The notes: generated from the letters alone by a model not told the origin. Counted from the stretch's first letter, positions 40,677 through 64,000 are shown. The stretch: 64,000 nt of DNA from Bacteroidota bacterium (GCA_040389865.1 JAZJZM010000019.1:17423-81422), one strand, 5' to 3'. Numbers and translations: made by a program.

Positions 40677-41110
40677 TGAAAAACGAAAGCAAAATAAAAC
40701 TTTTCCTCGTAGATGACGATGCATTGTTTTTAAAATCCTTGGAAATTGAGTTTCTGGAACACGCGGATTTTACAATTGAAACATATTCAACAGGTGAACT
40801 TTGCCTTAAAAATATATCTCACAGCCCTGATGTGATCATTTTAGATTATCACCTTGATGGCATCGATAAAAATGCGATGAATGGAATGGAAACATTGGAT
40901 AAAATAAAAGCTTCCCATCCTGATATTCCTGTAATAATGCTATCTTCTCAGGATAAAATTGATGTTGCCATAAACTGTATGCATCACAGAGCCTTTGATT
41001 ATGTGGTGAAAAGCGAAACCGCTTTCATGCGTCTGCAAAAGATCATCACAACTATTTTCCGTTATAAAAAAATGGAAAAAGAATTAAGTTGGTATATGGA
41101 TAGGATGTAA
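40676..41110 (+). CDS. Single-domain response regulator (REC)
   Basis: 'KLFLVDDDALFL', 'ILDYHLDG..MNGMETLDKIK' and 'FDYVVKS'. The ATG overlaps the kinase stop (TAATG), implying translational coupling. Confidence 0.85.
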   Translation: MKNESKIKLFLVDDDALFLKSLEIEFLEHADFTIETYSTGELCLKNISHSPDVIILDYHLDGIDKNAMNGMETLDKIKASHPDIPVIMLSSQDKIDVAINCMHHRAFDYVVKSETAFMRLQKIITTIFRYKKMEKELSWYMDRM

Positions 41111-41433
41111 TTTATGTATTTAATTCATTAATGCAATATTTGGGATTTGTTTGCCAGATAAATATATGGTAAACATAAAATTAGGAGCGTTGCCTACAAA
41201 GCAGGGCTCCTTTTTATTAATATCAAAACTAAATGGCTTTAAAAGGCGCGAGTTTGTGGTAAAGATATAGCAAATTATAAAGCTGAAATTGCAATGTAAT
41301 TGTCATTGATCAACGTTAGTTCAACACTTTATTTTTGTATCTTCGTTAAGTACAACTTTTTTTAGGATTAAAAGTCCATTCCCGCTCCCTTGATCAATAA
41401 GTACAAAATTAATGTTCAATAAATTAGATTATA

Positions 41434-44400
41434 ATGAGATCGATCGCTACCACTAAAAAGAAGAAATCACCAACCAAAAAAAATGTTGAAGATCATTCTT
41501 TTCCTATCGTGGCTATTGGCGCTTCATTAGGTGGTTTAGAAGCGCTTACCTCTTTATTGAAAAATTTACCTTCCAATACCGGAATGGCATATATTTATGT
41601 GCAACACTTAAGCCCTGACCATAAAAGTTTACTAACTTCTATAGTATCCAAGATAACTAAAATGAAAGTTCAGGAGATAGAGGATATGGCGCACATGGCT
41701 CCGGATAATGTGTATGTGATCCCCTATAATAAAATAATTAAAGTTACTGACGGACACATTAAATTGCTTCCCCGTCCAAAAAGCAGTTCTGCCATTTCCA
41801 TTGATGTTCTGTTCTCGTCACTTGCTAAAACGCATAAAAAGAATGTTATTGGTGTGATCCTTTCTGGCAGCGGCACTGATGGTACAAACGGATTAAAAGC
41901 GATCAAAAAAGCGGGAGGAATGACAATTGCACAAGATGATTCCGCGCAAGCAAACAGTATGCCCAACTCGGCTATTGCCTCTAATGTTGTTGATTTTATT
42001 TTATCTCCTAAAGAAATTGCCGGGCATTTAGCAACATTTAGCAAAAATGATTTTTTGAAACCTGACCTTGAAAGTAAACAGAAAGAAGAAGTTAGTGAAA
42101 ATAGTAATCATGATCTGAAAACTATTTTCGGAATTTTATTTAAAAAAACCGGTGTGGACTTCAATCATTATAAGATGTCCACCATTAAAAGGCGATTGAA
42201 CAATAAAATGCTTCAATGCGGAGTAAAAACAGTAAAGGAATATGTAAAATTATTGCTCAAAAAAAACAGTGAGGTTGATCTTCTTTACAAGGATCTGCTT
42301 ATTAACGTAACTAGTTTTTATAGAGATAAGGACGCATTTCAGTATTTAAAAACAACCTTGTTTCCAAAGCTTCTTGAGGGTAAAGCACCGGGAGAAGTAA
42401 TTCGGATATGGATTCCAGCCTGCTCTACCGGTCAGGAAGCTTATTCCATTGCCATGATGCTGACTGAGCTGCAGGAAAATAAAAAAAAGAAAATACCTTT
42501 CCAGATCTTTGGTACCGATCTTAGCGATCAGGCAATTAGTGCTGCACGCAAAGCCGAATATTCGGCAAGTGATCTTATTCCTATTTCAAAGAAATTCAAA
42601 GATCGTTACTTTACTAAAACGGGTGACAACTACCGTATTGTTAAAGAGCTTCGCGAATTGTGTGTATTTGCTCCTCATAATATTCTGCGCGATCCACCTT
42701 TTTCACGTATGGATTTTATCAGTTGTCGCAATCTTCTTATTTATTTTGATTCTTCTGCACAGAAACGGGTTTTTTCAATCCTGCATTTTGCTTTGAATAA
42801 CCAGGGGAGTTTAATGCTTGGTCAAGCAGAAACGGTAGGCACGTCTTCTCAGCTTTTTATCACTACAAATGCTAAATTTAAGATTTACTCTCGTAAAAAG
42901 AGTACCGGAGTGAGGAAGATACTTGAATTAACACCACATTTTCCGCGTACAAATTTTTATAGTAAAAAAATAAACACACCTGTTAAAAGTTTGAGCGTAA
43001 ATTTAATGGGTGTTGAGAATGCTATTGATTCTGCTATTCTCTCAAAGTACATGCCTGCGTGTGCAGTTATAAACAAGGACATGGAAATTCTCCAGTTCAG
43101 AGGACCGATCTCTTTATTTCTCGCACATCCTTCCGGCAAAGCAAGTCTAAATATTTTAAAAATGACAAGACCTGAATTTGCCTTTGAACTTCGTAATGCA
43201 ATTCAAAAAGTAATAAAAACAAAACAGTCGGTGCAAAAAGCGGGCATCGAAATTAAGGTCGAGTCTGTTTTTCGTATGATGTCTTTGGAAGTTTCTCTTC
43301 TTAAGATTGATTGGGACGAGCCATTGCTACTTATTGTTTTTACATTACAGGAACAGGTTGAAAAATTTATTGAAATTGGTAATAGCGGGAAAAGCAATTC
43401 GATCCATGATGCCCAAAGAATAGTAAAGCTGACCGAGGAGTTGAACAATACCCGGATGGAAATAAATTCCATTATCGAATCGCAAGAAGCTACTTTCGAG
43501 GAATTACAAGCAGCCAATGAAGAAATTGTTTCAAGTAATGAAGAGTTTCAAACCTTAAATGAAGAACTTGAAACATCGAAAGAAGAAATTGAGACTACCA
43601 ATGAAGAGCTAATTTCTATCAATCAGGAATTACAAATGCGTAATGATCTTTTAACAGAATCGCATGAGTATTCGGAGGCCATCATTGCTACCATCCATGA
43701 GCCTATGCTTGTGCTAAACAAGGACTTTATTATACAATCCGCCAATAAATCGTATTATAAAAAATTTCTTGTTAAAAAAGAAGAAACGGAAAAGAAATTG
43801 TTTTTTGAATTAGGAAATAAGCAATGGAATATTCCAAAACTTCGTGAGGTGTTAAATGATATTCTTACCAAAAACAAGAGTTTTGAAAATTTTGAAGTGA
43901 CACATGCATTCCCGGGAATAGGCGAAAAAATAATGTTGCTTAATGCACATCTTGTCCTTCAAAAAGAGAACAGAGAACAACTAATTCTGCTTGCCATTGC
44001 TGATGTTTCCGAGTTAAGGAGATTGAGTATAGAGCTCAAAGTGAAAGACGCTAAAGTATTAAAAAACGAAGAGAAAGGGAAATGGGCGGCAGAGTTAGTT
44101 ATTGCCAACAAAGAACTTGCCTTTCAAAATGAGGAGAAAGAAAAACGAGCAGAGGAGTTGATCATTGCCAATAAAGAACTTGTTTTCCAGAACAATGAAA
44201 AAGAAAAACGTGCTGCGGAGTTGGTCATTGCAAACAAAGAACTTGCTTTTCAAAATGATGAAAAAGAAAAACGTGCTGCCGAGTTAGTAATTGCAAACAA
44301 AGAGCTTGCATTTCAAAACGAAGTGAAAGAAAAACGAGCTGCTGAGTTGGTTATTGCAAACAAAGAACTTGCTTTTCAAAATGATGAGAAGGAGAAACGT

Positions 44401-46944
44401 GCAGCCGAGTTAGTTATTGCAAACAAAGAACTTTTATTTCAGGCAGGCGAGAAAGAAAAACGAGCAGCCGAGTTAGCCATTGCAAAAATAGAACTTGACT
44501 TTCAAAATAAAGAGAAAGAAAAACGGGAAATTGTAAATAAAGAACTTGAAGCGTTCAGTAATGCAACTAAATTAGCATCTCAATATTCTCGAAGTTTGAT
44601 CGAAGCAAGTTTAGATCCGCTTGTTACTATCAGTGCAGAAGGAAAGATATTGGATGTAAATAATGCATCGATAAAAGTGACGGGTGTTCCACGTGATAAA
44701 CTCATTGGCACTGATTTCTCCCGTTATTTTACAGAACCATTAAAAGCACAAGAAGGCTATAAGCAGGTTTTTGAAAAAGGATCTGTGTCGGATTATCCTT
44801 TAACAATAAAACATAAAAATGGAAACTTAACGGATGTATTGTACAATGCATCTGTTTATAAAGATGAGAAAGGTAATGTTCTTGGAGTTTTTGCTGCTGC
44901 ACGTGATATAACCGAACAAAAAAGAATTGAAGTTGATCTGGGTAAAAGTTTAAAGGAAATTTCGGATTACAAATATGCACTTGATGAATTTTCTATTGTT
45001 GCCATCACAGACCAGAAGGGAATTATCAAACATGCAAATGACAACTTTTGCAAAGTTTCAAAATTCACGAGAGAGGAATTAATAGGCGCGGATCATCGCA
45101 TTATTAATTCCGGCCATCATCCGAAAGAATTTATCAATGATTTATGGACAACAATTGCCAATGGCGGGATTTGGAGAGGTGAATTAAAAAATGCGGCAAA
45201 GGATGGAACTATTTATTGGGTGAATACTACTATTGTTCCTTTCCTGAATGAACAAGGAAAACCTTACCAGTATGTTGCAGTAAGAACGGACATTACCGAT
45301 CAAAAAAGAATAGAAACAGAATTGATAGAAGCAAAAGTGTTTGCTGAGTTGGCAACCGGTATTGCAGAAGAAGCCCAGAGCAAGGCGGAAAGCGCTACAT
45401 TAATAGCTGAAGATGCGGTGAAAGCGAAACAGCAGTTTTTATCAAACATGAGTCATGAAATCCGCACACCAATGAATGCGATCATTGGATTTACCAAAGT
45501 GGTATTGAAAACAGATCTAACGACAAAACAAAAGGAATATCTTTCAGCGATAAAAATGAGTGGTGATGCATTGATCGTACTTATAAACGATATCCTTGAT
45601 TTGGCAAAGGTAGATGCAGGCAAAATGACATTTGAGAAAACACCTTTCAAAATGGAGTCTTCCATTTCAGCGATGCTCCATTTGTTTGAGACAAAAATTC
45701 AGGAAAAGAATTTGGAATTAGTTAAAAAATACGATAGTAATATTCCTCAAGTGTTAATAGGTGACCCGGTTCGCCTGCATCAGATCATTTTAAATTTGGT
45801 GAGTAATGCAGTGAAATTTACAACAAAAGGGAAAATTACTGTTAGTGTTCTTCTATTAACTGAAGATGAAAATAATGCAAGCCTGGAATTTGCGGTTTCG
45901 GATACCGGAATAGGCATAGATGGAAACAAAATAGAACATATTTTTGAAAATTTTCAGCAAGCTTCAAGCAGCACTTCAAGGTTGTTTGGTGGGACAGGTT
46001 TAGGCTTGGCCATTGTAAAACAATTGGTAGAACCTCAGGGAGGTAGCATTAGGGTGAAAAGTAAAATTGGTGAAGGTTCTACTTTTAGTTTTATATTAAA
46101 TTTTCAAAAAACAAAGGCTGAAGCAGAATTAGAAACAGAAATGCTGGAGTTGGATACTGAGATCAAAAACATAAAAGTATTAGTGGTTGAAGATATTCCA
46201 CTTAATCAACTATTGATGAAAACACTATTGGATGATTTTGGATTTGAACGTGATATCGCTTCAAATGGAAAAATTGCCATCGAAAAGCTGCAAACTAAAT
46301 CGTATGATATTATTTTGATGGATCTGCAGATGCCTGAAATGAATGGATTTGAAGCAACAGAATACATTCGTAATAAAATGAATTCTAAGATCCCTATTAT
46401 GGCTTTAACGGCCGATGTGACCACCGTTGATCTGGAAAAGTGCAGAGCCGTTGGGATGAACGATTACATTGCAAAACCCGTTGATGAAAAATTATTGTAC
46501 AGTAAAATAATTAGTTTAGTAAAAAAGCGAATGCCTTTAAAAACGAAGGAATCTATTGGAAATGAAAATAATTTCAATGAAAAATTAAAATGCACTGACC
46601 TGAAATATTTAATAAAACGCACAAAAAATAGTCCGAAATTAATGATGGAAATGATCTCACTTTATTTGGAACAAACTCCACCTTTAATCAACTCAATGAA
46701 AAAAAGCGTGCAGGATAAAGATTGGGATTCGCTATACGCAGCAGTGCATAAAATGATACCATCCTTTTCAATAATGGGTATGAGTATTGATATTGAAAAT
46801 ACAGCAAAAAGAGTTCAGGAATACGCAGGTACAAAACAACGAACTGAAGAAATTTCAGGCTTGGTTTTACATCTCGAAAAAGTTTGTGCACAAGCATGTA
46901 AAGAATTGGAACTGGACTATACGAATTTTAAAAATGCTGGCTAG
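41434..46944 (+). CDS. CheB methylesterase - CheR methyltransferase fusion to a PAS/hybrid histidine kinase (1,836 aa)
   Basis: CheB motifs 'IVAIGASLGGLEAL' and 'ILSGSGTDGTNGLKAIKKAGGMTIAQD'. CheR SAM-site motif 'IRIWIPACSTGQEAYSIAMML'. An 'EEL(Q/E)(S/T).NEEL' heptad linker. 7 x 21-aa repeats. 3 PAS. H-box 'SHEIRTPMNAIIGF'. HATPase_c, REC, HPt. Confidence 0.9.
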   Translation: MRSIATTKKKKSPTKKNVEDHSFPIVAIGASLGGLEALTSLLKNLPSNTGMAYIYVQHLSPDHKSLLTSIVSKITKMKVQEIEDMAHMAPDNVYVIPYNKIIKVTDGHIKLLPRPKSSSAISIDVLFSSLAKTHKKNVIGVILSGSGTDGTNGLKAIKKAGGMTIAQDDSAQANSMPNSAIASNVVDFILSPKEIAGHLATFSKNDFLKPDLESKQKEEVSENSNHDLKTIFGILFKKTGVDFNHYKMSTIKRRLNNKMLQCGVKTVKEYVKLLLKKNSEVDLLYKDLLINVTSFYRDKDAFQYLKTTLFPKLLEGKAPGEVIRIWIPACSTGQEAYSIAMMLTELQENKKKKIPFQIFGTDLSDQAISAARKAEYSASDLIPISKKFKDRYFTKTGDNYRIVKELRELCVFAPHNILRDPPFSRMDFISCRNLLIYFDSSAQKRVFSILHFALNNQGSLMLGQAETVGTSSQLFITTNAKFKIYSRKKSTGVRKILELTPHFPRTNFYSKKINTPVKSLSVNLMGVENAIDSAILSKYMPACAVINKDMEILQFRGPISLFLAHPSGKASLNILKMTRPEFAFELRNAIQKVIKTKQSVQKAGIEIKVESVFRMMSLEVSLLKIDWDEPLLLIVFTLQEQVEKFIEIGNSGKSNSIHDAQRIVKLTEELNNTRMEINSIIESQEATFEELQAANEEIVSSNEEFQTLNEELETSKEEIETTNEELISINQELQMRNDLLTESHEYSEAIIATIHEPMLVLNKDFIIQSANKSYYKKFLVKKEETEKKLFFELGNKQWNIPKLREVLNDILTKNKSFENFEVTHAFPGIGEKIMLLNAHLVLQKENREQLILLAIADVSELRRLSIELKVKDAKVLKNEEKGKWAAELVIANKELAFQNEEKEKRAEELIIANKELVFQNNEKEKRAAELVIANKELAFQNDEKEKRAAELVIANKELAFQNEVKEKRAAELVIANKELAFQNDEKEKRAAELVIANKELLFQAGEKEKRAAELAIAKIELDFQNKEKEKREIVNKELEAFSNATKLASQYSRSLIEASLDPLVTISAEGKILDVNNASIKVTGVPRDKLIGTDFSRYFTEPLKAQEGYKQVFEKGSVSDYPLTIKHKNGNLTDVLYNASVYKDEKGNVLGVFAAARDITEQKRIEVDLGKSLKEISDYKYALDEFSIVAITDQKGIIKHANDNFCKVSKFTREELIGADHRIINSGHHPKEFINDLWTTIANGGIWRGELKNAAKDGTIYWVNTTIVPFLNEQGKPYQYVAVRTDITDQKRIETELIEAKVFAELATGIAEEAQSKAESATLIAEDAVKAKQQFLSNMSHEIRTPMNAIIGFTKVVLKTDLTTKQKEYLSAIKMSGDALIVLINDILDLAKVDAGKMTFEKTPFKMESSISAMLHLFETKIQEKNLELVKKYDSNIPQVLIGDPVRLHQIILNLVSNAVKFTTKGKITVSVLLLTEDENNASLEFAVSDTGIGIDGNKIEHIFENFQQASSSTSRLFGGTGLGLAIVKQLVEPQGGSIRVKSKIGEGSTFSFILNFQKTKAEAELETEMLELDTEIKNIKVLVVEDIPLNQLLMKTLLDDFGFERDIASNGKIAIEKLQTKSYDIILMDLQMPEMNGFEATEYIRNKMNSKIPIMALTADVTTVDLEKCRAVGMNDYIAKPVDEKLLYSKIISLVKKRMPLKTKESIGNENNFNEKLKCTDLKYLIKRTKNSPKLMMEMISLYLEQTPPLINSMKKSVQDKDWDSLYAAVHKMIPSFSIMGMSIDIENTAKRVQEYAGTKQRTEEISGLVLHLEKVCAQACKELELDYTNFKNAG
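44087..44535 (+). repeat. 63-bp tandem repeat array (7 units); paralogous to 37296-38304
   Basis: 'AELVIANKELAFQNEEKEKRA' units. The nucleotide sequence is near-identical to the repeat units of the first kinase. Confidence 0.9.
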
Positions 46945-54077: not shown

Positions 54078-54196
54078 AAACACCATTGCTCTCTTCCATT
54101 GTTTATATTCATTAGAATTACAAATTTACCCTTCCTGTTTTTATATTGTACAAGTTTTTCAAGGGCTTCAAATATAGTATTGTAAATGAACAACAA

Positions 54197-54234
54197 AAAA
54201 CCTTTAACGTATTACCGTTAAAGGTTTTTTGTTT
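54197..54234 (+). terminator. Rho-independent terminator (13-bp stem + T-run)
   Basis: 'aaaacctttaacg'-tattac-'cgttaaaggtttt' followed by 'ttgttt'. Confidence 0.75.
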
Positions 54235-54431: not shown

Positions 54432-54594
54432 AGAGCCTGTTTAAATTTTATTCAAAATGGTTTTTTGCCTTCGCTCTATTTCTAGTCTCCACTCAAAATG
54501 ACCATGTGCGCTGTCATTTCGAGCGATTCGAGAAAGGTGCATTAGCTTTGTAAGCAATATTGTTATTCTTTTATATAAAATTTAAACAGGCTCT
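54432..54594. mobile_element. MITE-like element copy B (163 bp); its arms are inverted relative to copy A
   Basis: It carries the same 20-bp TIRs 'agagcctgtttaaattttat' ... 'ataaaatttaaacaggctct'. The arm 'caagcaatattgttattctt' is the reverse complement of copy A's 'aagaataacaatattgcttg'. The central hairpin is degenerate ('ctccactcaaaatgaccatgtgcgctgtcatttcgagcgattcgagaaa'). Confidence 0.7.
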
Positions 54595-55149
54595 AACAAG
54601 ATGGAATTATTTTTGGAACCTCAAGTCAATTTGCACACAAAATAAAAGGAGTTAAAAAAAAGTAAATGAACAACTTATGACAATTTAGGCAAAGACATTT
54701 GGTACCCATTGCTAGAATATTTACTTTTTCTATTTTCATTTATTTCTAATGTAAAAATAGACAAATATAGATGCTGGTTTCTGAAACGTGTATGCCATGT
54801 TTTTAGAGATAAAAATGGGTGTTTTTACGGATATCAATTGATTTTATATATTGTATCATTGAGCTTTAAAATAATTTTTGAAATTTAATTAACCCTCATT
54901 CTTAAAAATTATCTATTCTTTACAAAGGAATAGATATGAACGAACAACATTTTTTTTTAGTTCTATGAGATTTTTGATTTTTAACAAAAACTAAACTTTT
55001 CTTACATGGTAATGTATTTGTGATTTTTGATAAAATCGGAGAAAAAAAAGTATTTATTTTTAACGTGATTTAAATGCATATCATTACAAAAAAGCAGTAA
55101 TAGCTTTTTTCGAAGCATTTGCATAAATATTAATTATTACTAATTCAGC

Positions 55150-55590
55150 ATGAGTTATAACTTAAAAAAAATGGAATTAAAAAAAGCTGGTTCGAAATAC
55201 CAATCGGTTATGATTGTTGATGATTGTGAAATTGATAATTATATTAATGAAATTATAATTAAAAAGGCTGGCTTTGCTGAGAATGTTTATAAACATAGCG
55301 GAGCTTTGGGGTCATTAGAGTTTTTAAAAAATATAGCAATGCTTAACTATACTGATCTTGATTTATTACCATCGGTTCTCTTTTTAGACATCAACATGCC
55401 TGTTTTAGATGGTTTTCAATTCCTTGATGAACTTAATAATTTTCCAACACAATTAAATAGAAAAATTAAAATTGTAATACTTTCTTCCTCCGCAAACCCT
55501 TCTGATATAAAAAAAGCAAGTCAATATAAACAAGTTGTCAAATTTCTTCATAAGCCTCTTACGAAAGAGGATTTGTACAACTTAAATTAA
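55150..55590 (+). CDS. Single-domain response regulator (REC)
   Basis: 'SVMIVDDCEIDN', 'FLDINMPVLDGFQFL' and 'VVKFLHKPL'. Confidence 0.8.
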   Translation: MSYNLKKMELKKAGSKYQSVMIVDDCEIDNYINEIIIKKAGFAENVYKHSGALGSLEFLKNIAMLNYTDLDLLPSVLFLDINMPVLDGFQFLDELNNFPTQLNRKIKIVILSSSANPSDIKKASQYKQVVKFLHKPLTKEDLYNLN

Positions 55591-55640: not shown

Positions 55641-57065
55641 ATGCTTCAAAAAATCATTCATCAATTAAATGAGAAGGATTATTCACTTCTTTCGTTACAA
55701 ATGAAAGAATCAAAAGCGGACAAATTTTTGTCTCTGTTGGTTAATTACCGTAAGGAAAAAACTACGGACAAAGAGTTGATCACAATTCTCAACGTTAATC
55801 CTCCTGCTTTTTATACCTTAAAGTCAAGATTATCAGAGAAAGTTCAATTCTTTTTATTTAAAAACAGCGCAGAAACCCGTATTGAGTTGATTCAAAACGT
55901 ATCAAAAATTGATCAATTGGTATATAATACTCCTCGTGAAACTGCAATTCAGATATTAAAAAAATTAGAAGCAGAGTTAATTAAAAATGACATGCCCAAT
56001 GAGCTGATTGTAGTTTACAAAGCATTAAAAAAGCTCCATCTTCATTCTTCAAAACATTTTGATTATTCACAACTCTATAATAAGCATGTTGCATATAATT
56101 TGGCACAGGATAAAGCCGAAGATTTATTATCCTCTTTTTGCAAAACGCTAAGCGAATACTATTTAAGCAGAAATGAGATACAGCTCACCTCACTAATTTT
56201 GTTAAAGAATGAAATGGAAAACGTGTGCAGGCTCTATAAATCCCACCGTTTAACGATTTATAAAAATATCCTGAACATCCATTTCGCTTTATTTTTATCT
56301 GATGCAGCTAAACTGAATGATGAAACAACCATTGAATCAATGCTGGCTGAATCCATTGAAATACTTAAAAATTTTGAGGATGATAAGGTTTATAAACATT
56401 TAATTCAGGTTATTAATTTTTTATATTTTGAATATTATTATCAATTAAAGTTGCATAAGAATGCACTTGTTTATTATGATAAGATATCATGCAAAACAGA
56501 AGCATTGTTGCTACTCAACCATAGCTGCTTTGCATCTCATTTTTTAATTTCAAAAATCGAATACACTGTTACAGGATCAAAACTTCCTGATTTTCACCTT
56601 AAAAATGATATTCTGGAAGATGATCCAGATCCTGAAAATATTCCAAATTTTATTTTGTTTGTTTACCATAAAACATCTATTGCGTTTTATGAAGGCCGTT
56701 ATTCTGATGCTATTCAAAGCTTGAACAAATTATTAAGAGAAATAAGTTTTAAGAGTATTGCTTTTTCTGAAGTTGAAATAAAATTGTTTCTTGCTATGCT
56801 TTATTTTTTTAACAAAGATGAAGAACACGCAACTGTAATTTTAAGAAATGTTACCAGAAAAATAAATGAAGAAAAAACAAGTGAAAAATATAAGTGCGTC
56901 ACGCCATTTCTGAAATTGTTAAAATCTTTAGGAAAGGGACAGAGTGAAAAGCAAGAAGAAAAAATTATTTTGCTTAATAACTATTATAAGGCCGCTAATG
57001 TTGGTCAATACAGAATCCTCGAGTCTCTTGTGTTAAATGATGAAATGCTGTCAAAAATTAAATAA
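55641..57065 (+). CDS. Hypothetical alpha-helical protein (474 aa)
   Basis: Intact ORF; no recognisable catalytic or NTP-binding motif. Confidence 0.5.
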   Translation: MLQKIIHQLNEKDYSLLSLQMKESKADKFLSLLVNYRKEKTTDKELITILNVNPPAFYTLKSRLSEKVQFFLFKNSAETRIELIQNVSKIDQLVYNTPRETAIQILKKLEAELIKNDMPNELIVVYKALKKLHLHSSKHFDYSQLYNKHVAYNLAQDKAEDLLSSFCKTLSEYYLSRNEIQLTSLILLKNEMENVCRLYKSHRLTIYKNILNIHFALFLSDAAKLNDETTIESMLAESIEILKNFEDDKVYKHLIQVINFLYFEYYYQLKLHKNALVYYDKISCKTEALLLLNHSCFASHFLISKIEYTVTGSKLPDFHLKNDILEDDPDPENIPNFILFVYHKTSIAFYEGRYSDAIQSLNKLLREISFKSIAFSEVEIKLFLAMLYFFNKDEEHATVILRNVTRKINEEKTSEKYKCVTPFLKLLKSLGKGQSEKQEEKIILLNNYYKAANVGQYRILESLVLNDEMLSKIK

Positions 57066-57085: not shown

Positions 57086-57862
57086 TTGAAAAGAATAATA
57101 TTTTTCGTCCTTCTGATCCCTCAAATTATTTCTGCCCAAATGAAGCAGAAGGAAAACTATACAGTTTATGTTAATTATCCTGATTATACAATAAAAACAG
57201 ACATATCTTCTAAGGTTAAAAGGATAAACATCCATGAAGAGCTGACTTATTACTGGTATGCTTCCAACAAAATAATGGAAACCACAGGAGGCTATGATGG
57301 TAAAATACTTAACGGCTCCTACACTTCATTCTATGTCAGCGGTAATTTAAGAGAGAAAGGTAAATTTAGAAATGGAATAAAAAATGGAGAATGGATTGCC
57401 TGGTATGAAACAGGGAAAATGAAAGAAATAAATGCATGGAGAAGAGGTATAAAGTCAAGTACTTCTAAAAGCTTTGATATAAATGGTGACCTTATTTCTG
57501 AGGCGAAATATAAGAAAGGGAAATTGAATGGTTCTCAAACAACTTATGGAAACGGAAAGGTCATTACAAAAAAGAAATATAAAAATGGAATAGAGGTTAT
57601 CAAGAAAGAAAAGAACCTTGATAAGGCTCTTGTTTCAATAGGACCCCGTACAAACATGGCTGAAAGATATAAGGTATTTAAAGAAAAAATTGTATCTGTT
57701 TTTAAAAAACACAATGACGAGGGAAATAAACAATCATTAAAAAAAGTAAAAAAAAATACTTCAGCAGACACACCTAAAAAGGTAAAAAAAGAAACACCTT
57801 CGGTTTTTAAAAAGAAGGTCGCTTCTGAAGAAATCAAAAAATCCAAGGAAAAAGCAAAATGA
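57086..57862 (+). CDS. MORN-repeat-variant (YwqK-like) protein with a Lys-rich C-terminal tail
   Basis: Repeats 'GSYTSFYVSGNLREKGKFRNGIKNGEWIAWYETGKMKEINAWRRGIK..G.S..F..NG.L..E..YKKGKLNG'. Signal peptide. Confidence 0.6.
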   Translation: MKRIIFFVLLIPQIISAQMKQKENYTVYVNYPDYTIKTDISSKVKRINIHEELTYYWYASNKIMETTGGYDGKILNGSYTSFYVSGNLREKGKFRNGIKNGEWIAWYETGKMKEINAWRRGIKSSTSKSFDINGDLISEAKYKKGKLNGSQTTYGNGKVITKKKYKNGIEVIKKEKNLDKALVSIGPRTNMAERYKVFKEKIVSVFKKHNDEGNKQSLKKVKKNTSADTPKKVKKETPSVFKKKVASEEIKKSKEKAK

Positions 57863-59124
57863 TAAAAGCGGGAGCGTTATTTTATGCAATTGTTATTTCC
57901 TTGATTATTGCAATTACGAGTAGTGCTCTTATTCTATCTGCATATCTTAGCAGGATCCAATATGAAAATTTTGAGATTAAAAGGCGATTAGACTTGAATG
58001 CTGATTCGGGAATAAAGCTGCTATTGTCAAAGCAATCATTGGTTGAGCTAAATCAGGAAAAAGCAATTGACTTATTTAATAATGGAATTGATAGTGTAAT
58101 TCTGATCAGAAAACAGTGGGGAGCATATGAAATAGCAATTTCAAAGGCGATATTTAAAAATAGTACGTCAGTTCGTACTGCACAGATTGGCTTTTACCCG
58201 GATAGTGATCATTTATATAGTTTACATTTATCTGATAAAGACAAACCTCTTGCACTATGTGGTAATACGCTCATAAAAGGTCCGGCCTTTTTGCCAAAAG
58301 CGGGCGTAAAACGAGCATATATAGAAGGACAGAGCTTTTCCCGAAGTCTATTAATTGACGGAGAGATCAGGAAGAGCGACCGGACACTTCCAAAGTTTAA
58401 TCCAGAATTAATAGAGAATATTCAGGCTGTTTTTTTTAAGAAATCATTGAGTGACAACGACAGTATACTCGATATAAAAAACGAGCTGACAGGAGATTCT
58501 TTGAATAATAGCTTTCAAAATAAGACATTGGTATTTGCAAGTTCAATCCCCATAGTAGTTTCGAACGGGATGTATTCAGGGAATATAGCCGTTATTTCAG
58601 ATAAACAGATTACTGTCACATCAAGCGCTCTGCTGAAAGATGTGTTGTTGTTTGCCCCAAAAATAATAATTGAAAAAAAATTCAGAGGGAATTTACAGGT
58701 ATTTGCTTCTGATTCAATAAGCATTGGTGAGGATGTAACTTTAACATATCCAAGCGTCATAGGGCTTATAAGTGACAATAAACCAAACGGCACTTCCATT
58801 ATTGTTTTAAATAAAAGTGACACTATTTTGGGAAGTGTATTTATAATTAAAAACGAAAATGCTATAATGGGACAGACACGGCTTCTGATCTCGGAAGAAG
58901 TAGTTATTTTCGGACAAGTCTATTCGAATGGATATGTTGACCTCAAAGGAACAATCAACGGCAGTTTAATGTGTGATAATCTAATGCTAACTACAGCTTC
59001 CTCTGTATACGAAAATCATTTATTGAATGCCGTTATCGATGTATCAAAACTGCCTGAGCATTATACAGGTATTAATCTTGTAGAAGAATCTACAGTAAAA
59101 AAAATAGTAAAATGGCTCAATTGA
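57859..59124 (+). CDS. GspK-like minor-pseudopilin candidate (421 aa)
   Basis: The N-terminal hydrophobic helix 'GALFYAIVISLIIAITSSALILSAYL' lacks Glu+5, as in GspK. A large periplasmic domain follows. The ATGA start/stop overlaps the upstream gene, and the 3' end overlaps the next gene by 13 nt. Confidence 0.45.
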   Translation: MIKAGALFYAIVISLIIAITSSALILSAYLSRIQYENFEIKRRLDLNADSGIKLLLSKQSLVELNQEKAIDLFNNGIDSVILIRKQWGAYEIAISKAIFKNSTSVRTAQIGFYPDSDHLYSLHLSDKDKPLALCGNTLIKGPAFLPKAGVKRAYIEGQSFSRSLLIDGEIRKSDRTLPKFNPELIENIQAVFFKKSLSDNDSILDIKNELTGDSLNNSFQNKTLVFASSIPIVVSNGMYSGNIAVISDKQITVTSSALLKDVLLFAPKIIIEKKFRGNLQVFASDSISIGEDVTLTYPSVIGLISDNKPNGTSIIVLNKSDTILGSVFIIKNENAIMGQTRLLISEEVVIFGQVYSNGYVDLKGTINGSLMCDNLMLTTASSVYENHLLNAVIDVSKLPEHYTGINLVEESTVKKIVKWLN

Positions 59125-59462
59125 ACCATAACCTAAAAGCTGCAACACTGATGGAATCCTTAATAGCAATGATTATTATTGTTGTTTGTTTTGGTGTTGC
59201 AACTATGATTTATACGAATGTTTTGGATTCAGACAAGCAACGGCTTCAATTAAAGGCCATTTTGATATTGAACAAGAAAGCAATAGAAACAAAGACTAAA
59301 AAAGAATTTCTTGATTCGGAAGAAGTAGCAGGCGACTGGACTATAAAAAAAATAATCGAACATTACCCCGGGACAGAAAATTTATATCAGCTTACTTTAA
59401 CTGCGTTGAGTAAAAGCGGGAAAACAATCGCGATAAGAAATGAATTAATATTGGCGGAATAA
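59112..59462 (+). CDS. Prepilin-type (type IV pilin / pseudopilin) protein
   Basis: 'LKA|ATLMESLIAMIIIVVCFGV' shows an A/G-(F/A)TL.E motif with Glu at +5 and a hydrophobic helix. Confidence 0.65.
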   Translation: MAQLNHNLKAATLMESLIAMIIIVVCFGVATMIYTNVLDSDKQRLQLKAILILNKKAIETKTKKEFLDSEEVAGDWTIKKIIEHYPGTENLYQLTLTALSKSGKTIAIRNELILAE

Positions 59463-59956
59463 TGAAACAGATTTCAGCCTTTACATTGTTGGAATTGCTC
59501 ATTGGGATGATCCTAAGTAGTATCGTTATTGGTTTCTGTTATACGGGCTATTCAATAATTCACAAGCAATATTTAAATTATAATAATATAAAAAGAGAAA
59601 ATACTAATGCAATTCAGTTAAATTCAATTTTAAATACAGATTTTGTGAATGCCGGATATGTAATGTACGATGGGGATAAATTGATTTTAAATTCTGAAAA
59701 CAAGGATCAGTTGCAATACGAATTTAAAGAAAATTACATTTTAAGGAGCACCAGCGGCTTAATTGATTCTTTTATGTTTTCTCCGGTAAATATTAGTCCG
59801 GAATATTTGAAGGAATCGACACGTTTACCTCTGGCAATTATTAATGAGTTTTCCTTTGATGTTGTTATACTTGGAGAATTAGAACATTTTCATTTTATTA
59901 AAGAATACAGTGCCGAAACAATGATTAGATTACAAATGGAAAATTCGAGCAATTAA
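59462..59956 (+). CDS. Prepilin-type (type IV pilin / pseudopilin) protein
   Basis: 'ISA|FTLLELLIGMILSSIVIGF' is a canonical prepilin N-terminus. The TAATG overlaps the previous gene. Confidence 0.75.
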   Translation: MKQISAFTLLELLIGMILSSIVIGFCYTGYSIIHKQYLNYNNIKRENTNAIQLNSILNTDFVNAGYVMYDGDKLILNSENKDQLQYEFKENYILRSTSGLIDSFMFSPVNISPEYLKESTRLPLAIINEFSFDVVILGELEHFHFIKEYSAETMIRLQMENSSN

Positions 59957-59958
59957 TT

Positions 59959-61107
59959 ATGTTGCAAATAGATCTAAATAATATTGATTTTGTAAAAAAA
60001 GCACCTGCCACACCTCTAAAAGAAAGGAAGGGTACACTTGACTTTCTGAATAAGGATCTTAAACTATTTGAAACAGGCTTTAGTGATAAAAAGAAAGAGC
60101 GTTTTTATTCAGAACTATGTATTCTTTTTTCAGCAGGAGTGGATATTCGTTCGGCTCTGGAATTAATAGAGGAAGAACAGACAAAAGAAAAAGATAAAAT
60201 TTTATTTGCCACTATAAAAGAATCCGTAGTAGCAGGTGCAGGCTTGTCAAGTGCTGTTGAACAAACCGGTATGTTTTCACCATACGAGTATTACAGCATT
60301 CAGATTGGTGAAGAAAGCGGAAGTTTAACAAAAGTGTTGCAGGAGCTTTCCTATTTTTATTCCAAAAAAATTCAACAGAAACGGCAGTTAATAAGTGCTC
60401 TTTCATATCCTGCGGTTGTTTTTTCAGCATCCTTTGGAGCTATATTTTTTATGATGAAATTTGTAGTTCCTATGTTTGCTGATGTTTTCAAGCGTTTTAA
60501 AGGGGAATTACCTTATTTCACGCGATTGATCATTCGGTTATCCGATGCTTTTTCAAATTATTCTTTATACTTTTTTGTAGGAATCACTATTATAGTTGTT
60601 TTTTTATATAATAAAAGGAGAACGGTTTGGTTTAGAAAGCTGAGTGCGGATGTATTATTGCGGACTCCTATTATGAAGGACATGATAAGCAAAATATATC
60701 TTGCCCGCTTTTGTCAATCAATGAATTTATTGATCAGTGCCAAGACTCCCTTAGTAACAGCAATTGATTTGGTAAAAAAAATGGTAGGTTTTTACCCAAT
60801 TGAAGTGTCACTCGAAACAATACAAGAAGATATACTGAAAGGCCAGCCATTACACCTTAGTCTGGCAAAATTTAAAATATATAACAGGCGGATGATCTCC
60901 CTGATAAGAGTTGCGGAAGAAGTGAACCAGCTTGATGTAATGTTTTCTAAATTAGCAAAGCAATACTCTGATGAAGTAGAGCACCAGACAAGTATATTGG
61001 GGAGTTTAATTGAACCTATAATGATCATTTTTCTTGGACTTCTTGTCGCAATTATTCTAGTTGCGATGTATCTGCCTCTTTTCCAGATGAGTTCAACGGT
61101 TGGATAA
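59959..61107 (+). CDS. GspF/PilC-family inner-membrane platform protein
   Basis: Two T2SS_F-type helical repeats ('LCILFSAGVDIRSALELIEE..', 'LLISAKTPLVTAIDLVKK..') and 3 TM segments. Confidence 0.75.
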   Translation: MLQIDLNNIDFVKKAPATPLKERKGTLDFLNKDLKLFETGFSDKKKERFYSELCILFSAGVDIRSALELIEEEQTKEKDKILFATIKESVVAGAGLSSAVEQTGMFSPYEYYSIQIGEESGSLTKVLQELSYFYSKKIQQKRQLISALSYPAVVFSASFGAIFFMMKFVVPMFADVFKRFKGELPYFTRLIIRLSDAFSNYSLYFFVGITIIVVFLYNKRRTVWFRKLSADVLLRTPIMKDMISKIYLARFCQSMNLLISAKTPLVTAIDLVKKMVGFYPIEVSLETIQEDILKGQPLHLSLAKFKIYNRRMISLIRVAEEVNQLDVMFSKLAKQYSDEVEHQTSILGSLIEPIMIIFLGLLVAIILVAMYLPLFQMSSTVG

Positions 61108-61653: not shown

Positions 61654-64000
61654 ATGAACTGCAGTCCAATCAAATATATATATACTCAAATTCCATTCAA
61701 TAGAAGTTTTGTTAAGCAACAAAAGCAAACGCTGCGTTTTTTAACAAATGCAATTTGTTTATTTTTTATTGTTATTTTATTTCAACAAAAAGCAATTGGA
61801 CAAAACCTTGGTATTAATACTACAGGCGCATTACCTGATTCATCGGCTATGCTCGATATCATAAGCCCTAATAAAGGATTGCTTATTCCAAGAATTAGTT
61901 TAACATCTACTACAGACGCTACTACTATTGCAAACCCCGCTATTTCATTGTTAGTGTATAATAACAATGTTTCTATGATCGGTGGAGGCTTAGGTTTTTG
62001 GTATTGGAATGGAACACAATGGGTACAGGCAATTGGCCCTGTGGGGGCTACTGGTTCAACAGGAGCAACGGGAGCTGACGGAATATTTGGAACAACTGGT
62101 GAAACGGGTACTGCTGGCTCAAATGGAAGTACAGGTTCAACAGGTGTAACTGGTGCTGAAGGAATAATAGGAGCAACCGGAGAGACAGGTTCTGCTGGAA
62201 CAAATGGAGCTATAGGTTCAACTGGTGCAACTTCAAATACAGGTGCAACAGGCAGTACAGGTTCAACAGGTTCTACGTCTAATACAGGTTCAACAGGTAG
62301 TACAGGCTCTACAGGTTCAACATCTAACACAGGTTCAACTGGAGCAACAGGAAGTAGTTCAACAGGTGCGACTGGTTCAACTGGTTTCACATCAAACACA
62401 GGTTCAACAGGAATTACCGGCTCAACCGGTTCCACTTCAAATACAGGAGCAACAGGAAGCACTGGCTCAACTGGTTCAACCGGGAGGACTGGCTCAACCG
62501 GTTCAACAGCTAACACAGGGTCTACGGGAGAAACTGGGACAACAGGTGCGACCGGCTCAACCGGTTCTACCTCAAATACAGGGTCAACAGGAAGCACAGG
62601 ATCAACTGGTTCAACATCTAATACTGGTTCAACAGGAAGCACAGGTTCAACATCAAATACCGGATCGACTGGGGCTACAGGTTCAACCGGTTCTACGTCC
62701 AATACGGGGGCAACAGGAAGCACAGGATCAACCGGTTCCACTTCAAATACAGGAACAACAGGAAGTACCGGTTCGACTGGTTCAACAGCTAACACTGGTT
62801 CAACAGGAGCAACGAGTTCAACAGGAAAGACAGGATCAACGGGCTCAACCGGTTCTACTTCAAATACAGGAACCACTGGCTCTACTGGTTCTACATCTAA
62901 TACCGGTTCCACGGGCGCGACAGGTTCAACAGGGACTACGTCAAATACGGGTTCAACAGGAAGTACAGGTTCAACTGGCTCGACATCAAATACAGGAGCA
63001 ACTGGGACAACAGGTGCGACCGGCTTAACCGGTTCAACAGCCAACACCGGTTCAACCGGTTCTACTTCAAATACAGGTGCAACAGGAAGTACAGGTTCAA
63101 CAGCTAACACAGGTTCAACGGGATCAACTGGTTCCACTTCAAATACAGGATCAACTGGAAGTACCGGCTCAACAGGAGCAACTGGAGCAACCGGTTCTAC
63201 TGGTGCTACTTCAAATACAGGTTCGACCGGAAGAACCGGTTCAACAGCTAGCACGGGTTCCACTGGCGCAACAGGTTCTACAGGGACAACAGGAAGTACC
63301 GGTTCAACTGGTTCAACAGCTAACACAGGGTATACAGGAGCAACTGGGACAACAGGTGCGACCGGTTCTACCTCAAATACAGGAACAACAGGAAGTACCG
63401 GCTCGACTGGTTCAACAGCTAACACAGGTTCTACCGGTGCGACCGGCTCAACAGGTTCAACAGCTAACACCGGTTCATCGGGATCAACGGGTTCCACTTC
63501 AAATACGGGATCAACAGGAAGTACTGGCTCTACCGGTTCTACAGGAGCAACTGGTTCTACTGGTGCTACTGGAACTACTTCAAATACAGGTGCAACAGGA
63601 AGTACCGGCTCGACTGGTTCAACAGCTAACACTGGTTCAACTGGAGCAACGAGTTCTACAGGTTCAACAGGAAGGACAGGGTCAACTGGTTCAACGGGTT
63701 CTACTTCAAATACAGGAACCACTGGAAATACCGGTTCCACAGGCTCAACCGGTTCTACATCTAATACAGGTTCAACAGGTGCGACCTCTAATACCGGTTC
63801 AACGGGAGCAACTGGAAGTAGTTCTACTGGTGCTACCGGTTCAACTGGCTCGACATCAAATACAGGTGCAACAGGAAGCACAGGCTCAACGGGTTCGACC
63901 TCTAATACCGGTTCAACGGGAGCAACTGGAAGTAGTTCTACTGGTGCTACCGGTTCAACTGGCTCGACATCAAATACAGGTGCAACAGGAAGCACAGGCT
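61654..64000 (+). CDS. Second giant collagen-like fibre protein, 5' part (paralog of 1629-13307); it runs off the window
   Basis: ATG 61654 follows a TAA at 61636-38. The N-terminal module '[68 protein letters not shown]' is about 60% identical to the first gene's module. It is followed by G-X-T triplets with regular 'STSNTG'/'STANTG' Gly-to-Ser interruptions. The six-frame track omitted it because there is no stop inside the window. Confidence 0.85.

What the first reader, a model, noticed from the sequence alone, without database searches (positions are those of the whole stretch)
57859..61107. Partial T2SS/T4P-like cluster (GspK-like, two prepilins, GspF) lacking ATPase, secretin and prepilin peptidase in cis
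Overlapping starts and stops (ATGA at 57859, a 13-nt overlap at 59112, TAATG at 59462) indicate that the MORN-repeat gene (57086) through the GspF-like gene form one operon. The two small proteins have textbook prepilin N-termini, A|ATLME and A|FTLLE with Glu+5. The 421-aa protein has a GspK-like Glu-less N-terminal helix. No GspE/PilB ATPase (no Walker A in any neighbouring ORF), secretin or peptidase is present in the flanking 6 kb. A REC gene (55150) and a 474-aa unknown sit immediately upstream. Such minimal pseudopilus modules in Bacteroidota are poorly understood. Either this module relies on trans-encoded components, or it is a non-canonical pilus-like system.
Basis: partly seen in the sequence, partly recalled or inferred. 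Interest (0 to 1): 0.55.

Follow-up and report, generated by a model that had tools for sequence, protein, structure and literature searches.

The report
Half of a split Bacteroidota pilus-like system
These genes are the tip-subunit and membrane-platform half of a pilus- or secretion-type machine already known in Bacteroidota; related genomes show that the motor, pore and processing enzyme lie in a second gene block that is often next door but has been separated here, so the finding is largely ordinary.

Summary
The window has seven intact, tightly packed + strand genes: REC, a 474-aa unknown, a MORN protein, a 421-aa protein, two prepilins and GspF/PilC. No ATPase, secretin, peptidase or major pilin occurs anywhere in the 64 kb.

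It is not a minimal or non-canonical system. In 31 non-redundant related loci, the block MORN-421-pilin-pilin-PilC ("module B") lies directly beside an eight-gene "module A". Module A is major pilin, short A24 prepilin peptidase, PilB/GspE ATPase, secretin, a PilM/N-like protein, a PilO-like protein, a lipoprotein and a small protein.

At least eight other genomes are split like the window. In two of them module A sits 21 kb and 50 kb away on the same contig. MAGs of the window's own lineage hold the matching ATPase on another contig.

The gene order matches the published Bacteroidetes "T2SS" (Cytophaga CHU_3191-3202, Flavobacterium Fjoh_0611-0622), which phylogeny places with type IVa pili.

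The 421-aa protein is not a GspK homologue. It is predicted to be a pilin helix and sheet joined to a beta-solenoid, which resembles the ComZ tip pilin only weakly.

All seven genes are under purifying selection. Verdict: a new member of a known, poorly characterised kind, of modest interest.

The parts
54192..54233 (.). Perfect 18-bp hairpin, terminator-like on both strands. It marks the end of the upstream transcription unit and is the likely 5' boundary of the REC-to-gspF unit.
   Evidence: No comparable + strand terminator lies between 55150 and 61107.
55150..55590 (+). Stand-alone receiver-domain (CheY-like) response regulator, with DD, D (LFLDINMP), S and K residues present. Accessory regulator candidate.
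   Evidence: Pfam Response_reg 2.6e-11. It is paired with the 474-aa gene next to module B in the window, L007, L013, L015 and L018, and lies between modules A and B in L001. dN/dS is 0.15 against L007.
55641..57065 (+). 474-aa all-alpha protein of unknown function with a weak TPR signal near residues 338-398. It always accompanies the REC gene.
   Evidence: No significant Pfam or NCBIfam hit and no PDB sequence hit. The single-sequence AF2 model is unusable (pLDDT 45). Identity to L007 is 97% and dN/dS is 0.046.
57086..57862 (+). Secreted MORN-repeat protein (Sec signal peptide, Lys-rich C-terminal tail). It is the conserved first gene of module B.
   Evidence: MORN_2 at 2.8e-4, sub-threshold. 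A homologue lies directly before the 421-aa gene in most related loci, and is relocated in front of or behind module A in a few: L003, L022, L029, L047.
57859..59124 (+). 421-aa family-specific large minor-pilin-like protein. It has a 4-5-residue leader (MIKA/G), a Glu-less hydrophobic helix, a 4-stranded sheet and a beta-solenoid. Predicted pilus or pseudopilus tip subunit.
   Evidence: AF2 with a 35-sequence alignment gave pLDDT 90.1 and pTM 0.85: helix 2-57, strands 66-112, beta-helix about 122-394. The top PDB fold hits are ComZ (6qvi) and then ice-binding beta-solenoids, all weak. The family has 2718 clusters at E<=1e-3. The N-terminus is conserved. The bactofilin hit is below cutoff.
59112..59462 (+). 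116-aa minor prepilin with a class III signal peptide, ..LKA|ATLMES.., and Glu+5.
   Evidence: The motif is conserved in about 35 orthologues, with Ala (less often Gly) at -1. Weak ComGE and N_methyl hits. dN/dS is 0.036.
59462..59956 (+). 164-aa minor prepilin, ..ISA|FTLLEL.., with Glu+5.
   Evidence: Pfam N_methyl at 24.4 bits, above the cutoff. The motif is conserved across orthologues. Weak ComGF and ComGD hits.
59959..61107 (+). GspF/PilC-type inner-membrane platform protein and last gene of module B.
   Evidence: Pfam T2SSF 1.1e-41 in two stretches. NCBIfam GspF, HofC and PilC all match at 191-227 bits, each below its equivalog cutoff. The only PDB match at E<=1e-10 is Myxococcus xanthus T4aP PilC, 1.6e-41. 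dN/dS is 0.062.

Best explanation
The region is 'module B' of a two-module type IV filament machine that is widespread in Bacteroidota. This is the system published as the Bacteroidetes 'T2SS' and placed by phylogeny with type IVa pili.

Module B encodes four kinds of component:
- a secreted MORN protein;
- a large Glu-less pilin-like protein whose globular part is a beta-solenoid;
- two small prepilins with Glu+5;
- the PilC/GspF platform.

Inferred mechanism:
1. The three pilin-like proteins are cut after a conserved (L/I)-K-A motif by a short A24 peptidase.
2. They assemble on PilC into a priming or tip complex, in the manner of GspK-I-J or ComZ-PilA2.
3. The major pilin is then polymerised beneath this complex by the PilB/GspE ATPase.
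4. The filament passes through, or acts as a piston under, the secretin.

The major pilin, peptidase, ATPase, secretin and PilM/N/O-like alignment proteins belong to 'module A'. In this genome module A is not adjacent and must be encoded elsewhere, possibly just beyond the window end after the giant collagen-like gene. REC and the 474-aa protein are lineage-specific regulators co-transcribed with module B.

Shown: gene content, the conserved two-module synteny, split arrangements with module A on the same contig in other genomes, and purifying selection. Inferred: cleavage site, tip location, co-transcription, presence of module A in this exact genome, and the output (secretion, adhesion or DNA uptake).
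For: 1. Synteny. Of the non-redundant loci that carry a 421-aa homologue, 31 have module A adjacent: 21 upstream on the same strand, 4 divergent and 6 downstream.

2. Split genomes keep module A.
- GCA_017303895.1, contig JAFLBF010000004.1: module B at about 37806-33867 and module A at about 12714-5240, same strand, about 21 kb apart.
- GCA_001769385.1, contig MEPB01000097.1: module B at about 14954-19103 and module A at about 68967-76505, about 50 kb apart. Integrase, transposase and Fic genes lie just upstream of module A.

3. The window's own lineage. The 90%-identity cluster of the 421-aa protein contains MES2397479.1 and MES2140743.1. A PilB/GspE cluster that is 81% identical to a module-A ATPase contains MES2394424.1 and MES2141100.1. 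These accession numbers lie within 3055 and 357 of each other, on different contigs.

4. Module A content. Major pilin ..LKA|FTLMELL (N_methyl 25.9 bits), Peptidase_A24 (8.6e-5), T2SSE, Secretin (5e-38), and a PilN-like C-terminus.

5. Signal peptides. The class III motif is the same in the major pilin and both minor pilins. The 421-aa family is Glu-less.

6. The 421-aa model. Pilin helix and sheet plus a beta-solenoid, with ComZ as the top PDB hit. ComZ is argued to be a tip pilin with a GspK-like pilin domain (PMC6561018).

7. Published clusters. CHU_3198-3191 (G-O-E-D-C-L-M) plus CHU_3199-3202, and Fjoh_0611-0622, have the same order (PMC5553014). A cultured Tamlana genome shows this order with a 421-aa homologue first. 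The Bacteroidetes 'T2SS' clusters with T4aP (PMC6668835).

8. Selection. dN/dS is 0.04-0.26 for all seven genes against a relative in which these proteins are 81-98% identical (90% for the 421-aa protein).
Against: - Module A was not seen in the source genome. The window stops 2.9 kb after gspF, and the genome is not in the collections searched (best match 90%).
- The same-MAG argument for the ATPase rests on adjacent accession numbers, not on a retrieved contig.
- Direct sequence comparison with CHU_3199-3202 or Fjoh_0611-0614 was not possible. Identity with the published system therefore rests on gene order, gene content and taxonomic range.
- The ComZ fold match is weak (E 7e-3, TM about 0.2).
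- The peptidase and ComP_DUS hits are below Pfam cutoffs.
- No filament, secretion or cleavage has been observed for this family.
Confidence: 0.8

Rival explanations
1. Self-sufficient minimal or non-canonical pilus-like module. The four or five genes would build a membrane-anchored structure without a dedicated ATPase, secretin or peptidase.
For: No partner genes occur in 57 kb upstream or 2.9 kb downstream. The same stand-alone layout recurs in at least 8 other genomes with about 8 kb or more of flank on both sides.
Against: Every split genome that could be followed on a long contig has module A elsewhere. In 31 loci the two modules are contiguous. PilC-type platform proteins have no known function without a PilB/GspE-type ATPase (established knowledge). 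The class III signal peptides are identical to that of the module A major pilin, which implies a shared peptidase.
Confidence: 0.04
2. Decaying remnant. Module A has been lost from this genome, and module B is on its way to becoming pseudogenes.
For: Separation from module A is a plausible first step towards loss. Mobile-element genes flank some of the split junctions: IS1 and HipA in L005, and integrase and rve in L061.
Against: All ORFs are full length relative to the family, and the 421-aa protein keeps all 35 invariant residues. dN/dS is 0.04-0.26 against L007. The REC-474-module B layout is kept in several lineages whose 421-aa proteins are 60-90% identical to the window's (L007, L013, L015, L018). 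The lineage's MAGs appear to hold the ATPase.
Confidence: 0.06
3. The same two-module machine, but acting as a true protein-secretion pseudopilus (T2SS-like piston) rather than an extended pilus. The beta-solenoid protein would cap a short periplasmic pseudopilus and contact cargo or the secretin. This concerns the machine's output and is compatible with the best explanation.
For: C. hutchinsonii mutants in the D, F and G homologues are impaired in cellulose use and adhesion (PMC5553014). In F. johnsoniae the best match to Vibrio PilT is the same protein as the best match to PilB (PMC7965970, Table 2), which I read as no separate PilT. The K/I/J-like trio has one large Glu-less member and two small Glu+5 members.
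Against: The phylogeny places the system with T4aP (PMC6668835). The platform's only PDB match at E<=1e-10 is T4aP PilC, and the ATPase scores slightly better against PilB than GspE. The major pilin has a weak ComP-like signal, and the large pilin resembles the competence tip pilin ComZ. No GspC, GspL or GspM homologues were detected. No cargo is known.
Confidence: 0.4
4. [quoted passage not shown]
For: The top fold hits are ComZ followed by ice-binding-type solenoids. This is the same pair of relatives reported for ComZ itself (PMC6561018). There are weak ComP_DUS, ComGE and ComGF hits. F. johnsoniae has ComEC, DprA and ComM homologues alongside this cluster (PMC7965970).
Against: All the Com-type hits are below threshold and the fold match is not significant. 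F. johnsoniae was not transformable under the conditions tested (PMC7965970). No DNA-binding residues were identified here.
Confidence: 0.3

Closest known systems
Bacteroidetes 'putative T2SS' (Cytophaga hutchinsonii CHU_3191-CHU_3202; Flavobacterium johnsoniae Fjoh_0611-0622; Pedobacter Phep_1100-1112), PMC5553014; placed with T4aP by Denise et al. 2019, PMC6668835
   Same: The component list and order are the same. One block holds major pilin, A24 peptidase, ATPase, secretin and three or four PilMNOP-like genes. The other holds a platform gene preceded by two or three minor pilin genes. Both B-to-A and A-to-B orders occur. A split is also on record: Odoribacter has its F gene about 15 genes away from the rest. 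Cultured Flavobacteriaceae (Tamlana) carry the 421-aa homologue in the position of Fjoh_0611.
   Different: Here only the platform and minor-pilin half is present in 64 kb. A REC gene and a 474-aa gene are fused to the operon. The published work did not describe the MORN protein, and did not describe the large beta-solenoid pilin as such. Direct sequence orthology to the CHU and Fjoh proteins could not be tested.
GspK-GspI-GspJ pseudopilus tip complex of proteobacterial T2SS
   Same: There is one large minor pilin lacking Glu5 and two small ones with Glu5. They are encoded together and next to the core machinery. The presumed role is priming or tip formation.
   Different: There is no sequence match to GspK, GspI or GspJ families. 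The inserted domain is a beta-solenoid, not GspK's alpha-helical domain. There is no GspH, C, L or M. The -1 residue of the signal peptide is mostly Ala, not Gly.
ComZ-PilA2 competence pilus tip of Thermus thermophilus (PDB 6qvi; PMC6561018)
   Same: A pilin helix and sheet is combined with a large beta-solenoid that resembles ice-binding proteins. It is encoded among minor pilins. ComZ is the top PDB fold hit.
   Different: The match is weak (E 7e-3, TM about 0.2, 9% identity). The size differs: 421 aa against roughly 500-520 residues in the ComZ chains. DNA binding is untested, and the host phylum and operon context are different.
Type IVa pilus machinery (PilB, PilC, PilQ, PilMNOP, minor pilins FimU/PilVWX, PilY1)
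   Same: The platform is most similar to PilC and the ATPase to PilB. The system has a secretin with STN and Secretin_N domains, a PilN-like region, and a class III major pilin of about 115 residues.
   Different: No PilT was found in the clusters. There are three pilin-like accessory proteins rather than four or five plus PilY1. The peptidase is about 175 aa, which is short. All NCBIfam PilC and GspF equivalog cutoffs are missed.

Membership tests
Bacteroidota T4aP-derived 'T2SS-like' system (Cytophaga/Flavobacterium type) | GspF/PilC platform gene immediately preceded by minor-pilin genes with class III signal peptides | tested here: met
   The order 421-116-164-PilC matches the published positions of Fjoh_0611-0614 and CHU_3202-3199 (PMC5553014).
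Bacteroidota T4aP-derived 'T2SS-like' system (Cytophaga/Flavobacterium type) | Block of major pilin, A24 peptidase, PilB/GspE, secretin and PilMNO-like genes in the same genome | tested here: inconclusive
   The block is absent from the 64-kb window. It is adjacent in 31 related loci and lies on the same contig in two split genomes. Accession adjacency implies it is present in the window's lineage. The source genome itself was not available.
Bacteroidota T4aP-derived 'T2SS-like' system (Cytophaga/Flavobacterium type) | Sequence orthology to the genetically studied CHU_3199 and Fjoh_0614 cluster proteins | not testable with these tools
   Those sequences could not be fetched. Support is indirect: identical gene order in Tamlana, and a taxonomic spread over Flavobacteriales, Cytophagales and Chitinophagales MAGs.
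Canonical T2SS (Gsp/Pul/Xcp) | GspF equivalog score; presence of GspC, L, M and GspH-K families | tested here: not met
   NCBIfam GspF scores 226.8 bits against a 424 cutoff. No T2SSK, GspI or GspJ hit was found for the pilin-like proteins. No GspC, L or M family was recorded for any gene of the related clusters.
GspK (T2SSK) family, for the 421-aa protein | Match to GspK sequence models; alpha-helical insertion domain in a pilin fold | tested here: not met
   There is no Pfam or NCBIfam GspK hit at E<=1. The model shows a beta-solenoid instead. Only the Glu-less N-terminal helix and the genomic role resemble GspK.
Bactofilin (the source annotation of some homologues) | Pfam PF04519 above the gathering score; cytoplasmic polymer-forming beta-helix | tested here: not met
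   The score is 17.7 bits against a 27.9 cutoff, over residues 343-382 only. The protein has an N-terminal hydrophobic pilin-type helix and sits in a pilin operon.
Type IV prepilins (class III signal peptide) | Short basic leader, small residue at -1, hydrophobic +1, Glu at +5, hydrophobic helix of about 20 residues | tested here: met
   The 164-aa protein passes N_methyl at 24.4 bits. Both small proteins and the module A major pilin share K-A|(F/A/S)-T-L-x-E across about 35-40 orthologues. Actual cleavage and methylation were not tested.
Com (ComG) competence pseudopilus | ComGB, ComGE and ComGF equivalog scores | tested here: not met
   ComGB scores 125.9 against 240, ComGE 20.2 against 49, and ComGF 19.7 against 80.
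ComZ-like beta-solenoid tip pilin | Pilin domain plus an ice-binding-type beta-solenoid, with a significant structural match | tested here: inconclusive
   ComZ chains are ranks 1-3, but with E 7e-3 to 1.4e-2 and TM 0.15-0.22. Ice-binding proteins follow at ranks 4-16. The architecture is consistent, but the match is not significant.

The most novel reading that the evidence does not exclude
The 421-aa protein represents a very large family (about 2,700 clusters at 50% identity) of uncharacterised tip pilins. It occurs mainly in Bacteroidota, with a few hits in MAGs labelled Chlorobiota. A beta-solenoid follows a Glu-less pilin domain in the predicted model. With the MORN protein and two small pilins, it would form the business end of the phylum's T4aP-derived machine, as a receptor for DNA, polysaccharide or cargo.

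In this lineage its expression would have been uncoupled from the motor and pore genes and placed under a dedicated REC/474-aa regulator. The Ala(-1) signal peptides and the 175-aa peptidase would define a phylum-specific processing variant.
Probability: 0.3. Interest if true: 0.5.

Novelty: new member of a known kind. Interest (0 to 1): 0.3.

Why it matters
The Bacteroidota T4aP-like 'T2SS' is one of the least understood members of the type IV filament superfamily. Its output (secretion, adhesion or DNA uptake) is unsettled.

This analysis adds little that is new about the window itself: it holds one half of that system. It does sharpen three points:
- The system is modular, and the two modules are repeatedly separated and rearranged.
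- The accessory half always includes a MORN protein and a large beta-solenoid pilin that the literature has not characterised.
- Cultured carriers exist in which the tip-pilin hypothesis can be tested: Tamlana sp. 2_MG-2023 and Acidiluteibacter ferrifornacis S-15, and, by published gene order only, F. johnsoniae.

For annotation, it warns against two errors. One is calling such half-clusters 'incomplete' systems. The other is labelling the 421-aa family as bactofilin.

Tried and rejected
- **Source genome search.** The exact 421-aa protein is on record only on a 7-kb Logan contig. Module A therefore could not be sought directly in the source genome.
- **Flank overlap.** blastn of all fetched loci against the window tested whether stand-alone module A contigs (L011, L012) overlap the window ends. 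They do not. Apart from one short upstream match (L013), the matches listed outside 55-61 kb were to the collagen-like repeats, in an output that was partly cut.
- **474-aa protein.** Pfam, NCBIfam and PDB sequence searches found nothing. Single-sequence AF2 gave pLDDT 45, which is unusable.
- **Link to F. johnsoniae.** A search seeded with a Flavobacteriaceae-MAG homologue returned only 25 hits, which reached Tamlana and Lacinutrix but not Flavobacterium.
- **Promoters.** The sigma-70 scan found fewer sites than the shuffled controls (37 against 43). I also expect Bacteroidota promoters to differ from this consensus (own knowledge; the tool notes that other promoter types are not covered), so I did not use it.
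- **RNA families.** Rfam found nothing in 52-62 kb.
- **Bactofilin annotation.** Rejected: the hit is sub-threshold and the protein has a pilin-type N-terminus.
- **GspK homology.** Rejected as membership and kept only as an analogy.
- **Minus-strand ORFs.** The 737-aa ORF at 61782-63995 (-) and the ORF at 62225-63028 (+) were rejected as shadow frames of the collagen-like gene.

Full report
**1. What is in the window**

| Coordinates (+ strand) | Length | Identity |
|---|---|---|
| 55150-55590 | 146 aa | REC |
| 55641-57065 | 474 aa | unknown |
| 57086-57862 | 258 aa | MORN protein |
| 57859-59124 | 421 aa | large pilin-like protein |
| 59112-59462 | 116 aa | prepilin |
| 59462-59956 | 164 aa | prepilin |
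| 59959-61107 | 382 aa | GspF/PilC |

- The overlaps are 4 nt, 13 nt and 1 nt, with a 2-nt gap before the last gene.
- REC and the 474-aa gene precede the MORN gene with gaps of only 50 and 20 nt.
- A perfect 18-bp hairpin at 54192-54233 lies upstream. No comparable + strand terminator lies inside the block. The transcription unit therefore probably runs from REC to gspF (inference).
- The last gene is a GspF/PilC platform protein. Pfam T2SSF scores 1.1e-41. NCBIfam GspF, HofC and PilC score 191-227 bits, all below their equivalog cutoffs. The only PDB match at E<=1e-10 is Myxococcus T4aP PilC.
- The 164-aa protein passes Pfam N_methyl. The 116-aa protein does not, but it has the same motif.
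- tblastn with the ATPase, secretin, peptidase, major pilin and alignment proteins of a relative found none of them in the 64 kb. Pfam scans of the other large ORFs agree.
- The factual observation is therefore confirmed. One caveat: only 2.9 kb of sequence follows gspF.

**2. What the comparison with relatives shows**

The 421-aa protein has about 400 word-indexed homologues. Among the 120 best listed, every one that carries a name comes from an uncultured Bacteroidota MAG, and none comes from a cultured organism. A profile search of 1.84 billion representatives found 2718 clusters, nearly all 405-430 aa long.

Contigs and genomes that encode homologues show that MORN-421-pilin-pilin-PilC ("module B") is one half of a conserved 12-13-gene system. 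The other half ("module A") contains, in order:
- a major pilin of about 137 aa (N_methyl 25.9 bits; ComP_DUS sub-threshold);
- a multi-pass membrane protein of about 175 aa with a Peptidase_A24 signal (8.6e-5);
- a 480-aa PilB/GspE ATPase;
- a secretin of about 635 aa with STN and Secretin_N domains;
- a protein of about 412 aa with a PilN-like C-terminus;
- a single-pass protein of about 180 aa;
- a lipoprotein of about 313 aa with Ig-like repeats;
- a protein of about 155 aa.

A census by tblastn gave the following arrangements among non-redundant loci:

| Arrangement | Loci |
|---|---|
| Module A directly upstream, same strand | 21 |
| Divergent | 4 |
| Module A directly downstream | 6 |
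| Module B alone, with about 8 kb or more of unrelated flank on both sides | 8 |
| Module B alone, with a shorter downstream flank | window, L007 |

The system is thus modular, and the two modules are repeatedly rearranged.

**3. Is module A really kept when the system is split?**

In two split genomes with long contigs, it is.
- In GCA_017303895.1, module B and module A lie on the same strand about 21 kb apart. Giant adhesin genes and PorP/SprF genes separate them.
- In GCA_001769385.1 they lie about 50 kb apart. Integrase, transposase and Fic genes sit just upstream of module A.
- For the window's own lineage, the 90%-identity cluster of the 421-aa protein holds MES2397479.1 (V4549_15830) and MES2140743.1 (V4511_13625). 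A PilB/GspE cluster that is 81% identical to a module-A ATPase holds MES2394424.1 and MES2141100.1, on other contigs.
- Those accession numbers lie within 3055 and 357 of each other. That indicates the same MAG submissions. This is an inference from numbering, not from a retrieved locus.
- The literature also records a split: in Odoribacter the F gene lies about 15 genes from the rest (PMC5553014, Table 2).

All seven window genes are under purifying selection against L007, a relative in which these proteins are 81-98% identical. dN/dS ranges from 0.036 to 0.26. They are therefore not decaying remnants.

**4. The pilin-like proteins**

N-terminal regions from about 40 loci show one shared class III signal peptide:
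- major pilin: ..LKA|FTLMELL..
- 116-aa family: ..LKA|(A/S/T)TL(I/M)ES..
- 164-aa family: ..(L/I)KA|FTLLEL..

Ala is at -1 in most sequences and Gly in a minority. Glu+5 is almost always present.

The 421-aa family begins M-(I/L)-K-A-(G/S)-(S/A)-L-F-Y-A and never has Glu+5.

AlphaFold2 with a 35-sequence alignment gives a confident model (pLDDT 90.1, pTM 0.85). It has a helix at residues 2-57, four strands at 66-112, and then a beta-helix that runs nearly to the C-terminus.

Foldseek against the PDB puts the Thermus competence pilin ComZ first and ice-binding beta-solenoids next. All hits are weak (E 7e-3 and upward, TM about 0.2). These are the same two kinds of relatives reported for ComZ itself. 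ComZ's pilin domain resembles GspK most closely, and ComZ is argued to cap the pilus (PMC6561018).

The trio of one large Glu-less and two small Glu+5 pilins therefore looks like a GspK-I-J or ComZ-PilA2-type priming or tip complex. This is an analogy. No GspK, GspI or GspJ family match exists. The 'bactofilin' label that some sources give is a sub-threshold beta-helix artefact (17.7 bits against 27.9).

**5. Relation to what is known**

The order pilin, peptidase, ATPase, secretin and PilMNO-like genes, plus platform and minor pilins, is that of the 'putative T2SS' of Cytophaga hutchinsonii (CHU_3198 to 3191 and CHU_3199-3202) and of Fjoh_0611-0622 and Phep_1100-1112 (PMC5553014).
- Mutants in the Cytophaga D, F and G genes are impaired in cellulose use and adhesion.
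- Denise et al. found that this 'so-called T2SS of Bacteroidetes' always clusters with T4aP. They suggested it may be a secretion system derived independently from T4aP (PMC6668835).
- F. johnsoniae was not transformable under the conditions tested, and its best PilT match is the same protein as its best PilB match (PMC7965970).
- A cultured Tamlana genome has the order 265-406-113-164-PilC-pilin-(gap)-ATPase-secretin-393-174-319-174. This is the Fjoh order, with the 421-aa homologue in the place of Fjoh_0611.
- Acidiluteibacter ferrifornacis S-15 also carries the full cluster (L046).
- The ATPase scores marginally better against PilB than against GspE structures.
- I could not compare sequences directly with the CHU and Fjoh proteins.

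**6. Mechanism and verdict**

The best-supported reading (confidence about 0.8) is as follows.
1. Module B supplies the platform and the priming or tip subunits.
2. These subunits are processed by the short A24 peptidase.
3. They are extended with the major pilin by the ATPase, under the secretin.
4. The peptidase, major pilin, ATPase and secretin are all encoded by a displaced module A.
5. REC and the 474-aa protein are lineage-specific regulators. They occur only with the window's closer relatives, and in L001 they lie between the two modules.

Whether the machine secretes proteins, makes an adhesive pilus or takes up DNA remains open. I rate a secretion pseudopilus at about 0.4 and a pilus with a tip receptor at about 0.3.

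The finding is a new member of a known but poorly characterised kind. The 'missing' components are an effect of modular genome organisation and the window boundary, not a new type of system.

Noticed in passing
window 61654-64000 (+), runs off the window end; also window 1629-13307 (+): Both are giant collagen-like genes with Gly-X-Thr/Ser repeats. The gene downstream of gspF has a conserved N-terminal domain followed by Pfam Collagen repeats (53 bits). The 3892-aa ORF at 1629-13307 carries the same repeats and a C-terminal Gly_rich_2 domain. Similar giant genes follow gspF in L007, L015 and L009, and giant adhesin genes separate modules B and A in GCA_017303895.1. The association with module B is not universal and is unexplained.
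   Followed up: partly
window 61782-63995 (-) and 62225-63028 (+): The long ORFs listed here (a 737-aa 'PVEPVEPV' ORF and a 267-aa Gln-rich ORF) are shadow frames of the collagen-like repeat gene, not genes.
   Followed up: yes
L009 6543-7070 (-) and orthologues (L010 643-1164, L011 950-1471, L012 9474-10001): The prepilin peptidase of this system is only about 175 aa, and its Peptidase_A24 signal is sub-threshold. It is short for a PilD-type peptidase. Nearly all of its presumed substrates have Ala rather than the usual Gly at -1. This may be a phylum-specific processing variant.
   Followed up: partly
window 54468-54570: A short dispersed repeat lies in the non-coding stretch upstream of REC. 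It also matches unrelated positions in L001 (16510-16411, opposite strand) and L018 (12739-12783). It is probably a small REP- or MITE-like element.
   Followed up: no
window 54744-55149: This 400-nt AT-rich, ORF-free stretch directly upstream of REC is about 81% identical to the same position in L007 and L014, and 74% identical in L013. It is a likely promoter or leader of the REC-to-gspF unit. No Rfam family matches it.
   Followed up: partly
window 37272-46944 (+): A dense signalling cluster lies here: a 1134-aa PAS hybrid histidine kinase, a 144-aa REC protein, and an 1836-aa CheB-CheR-PAS-HisKA-HATPase-REC fusion. It is about 8 kb upstream of the REC/474 pair. No link to the pilus module was tested.
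   Followed up: no
window 27737-28819 (+): A 360-aa protein here has a bacterial archaeo-eukaryotic release-factor-like domain (baeRF family 3, 4.5e-30). It lies near Hsp20 and universal stress protein genes.
   Followed up: no
L061 930-8987 (GCA_001769385.1) and L005 3300-7102 (GCA_017303895.1): Mobile-element and toxin-antitoxin genes sit at the junctions where modules A and B have been separated. They include integrase, rve transposase, Fic, IS1 transposase, HipA and HigB. This suggests that insertions drive the splits.
   Followed up: partly
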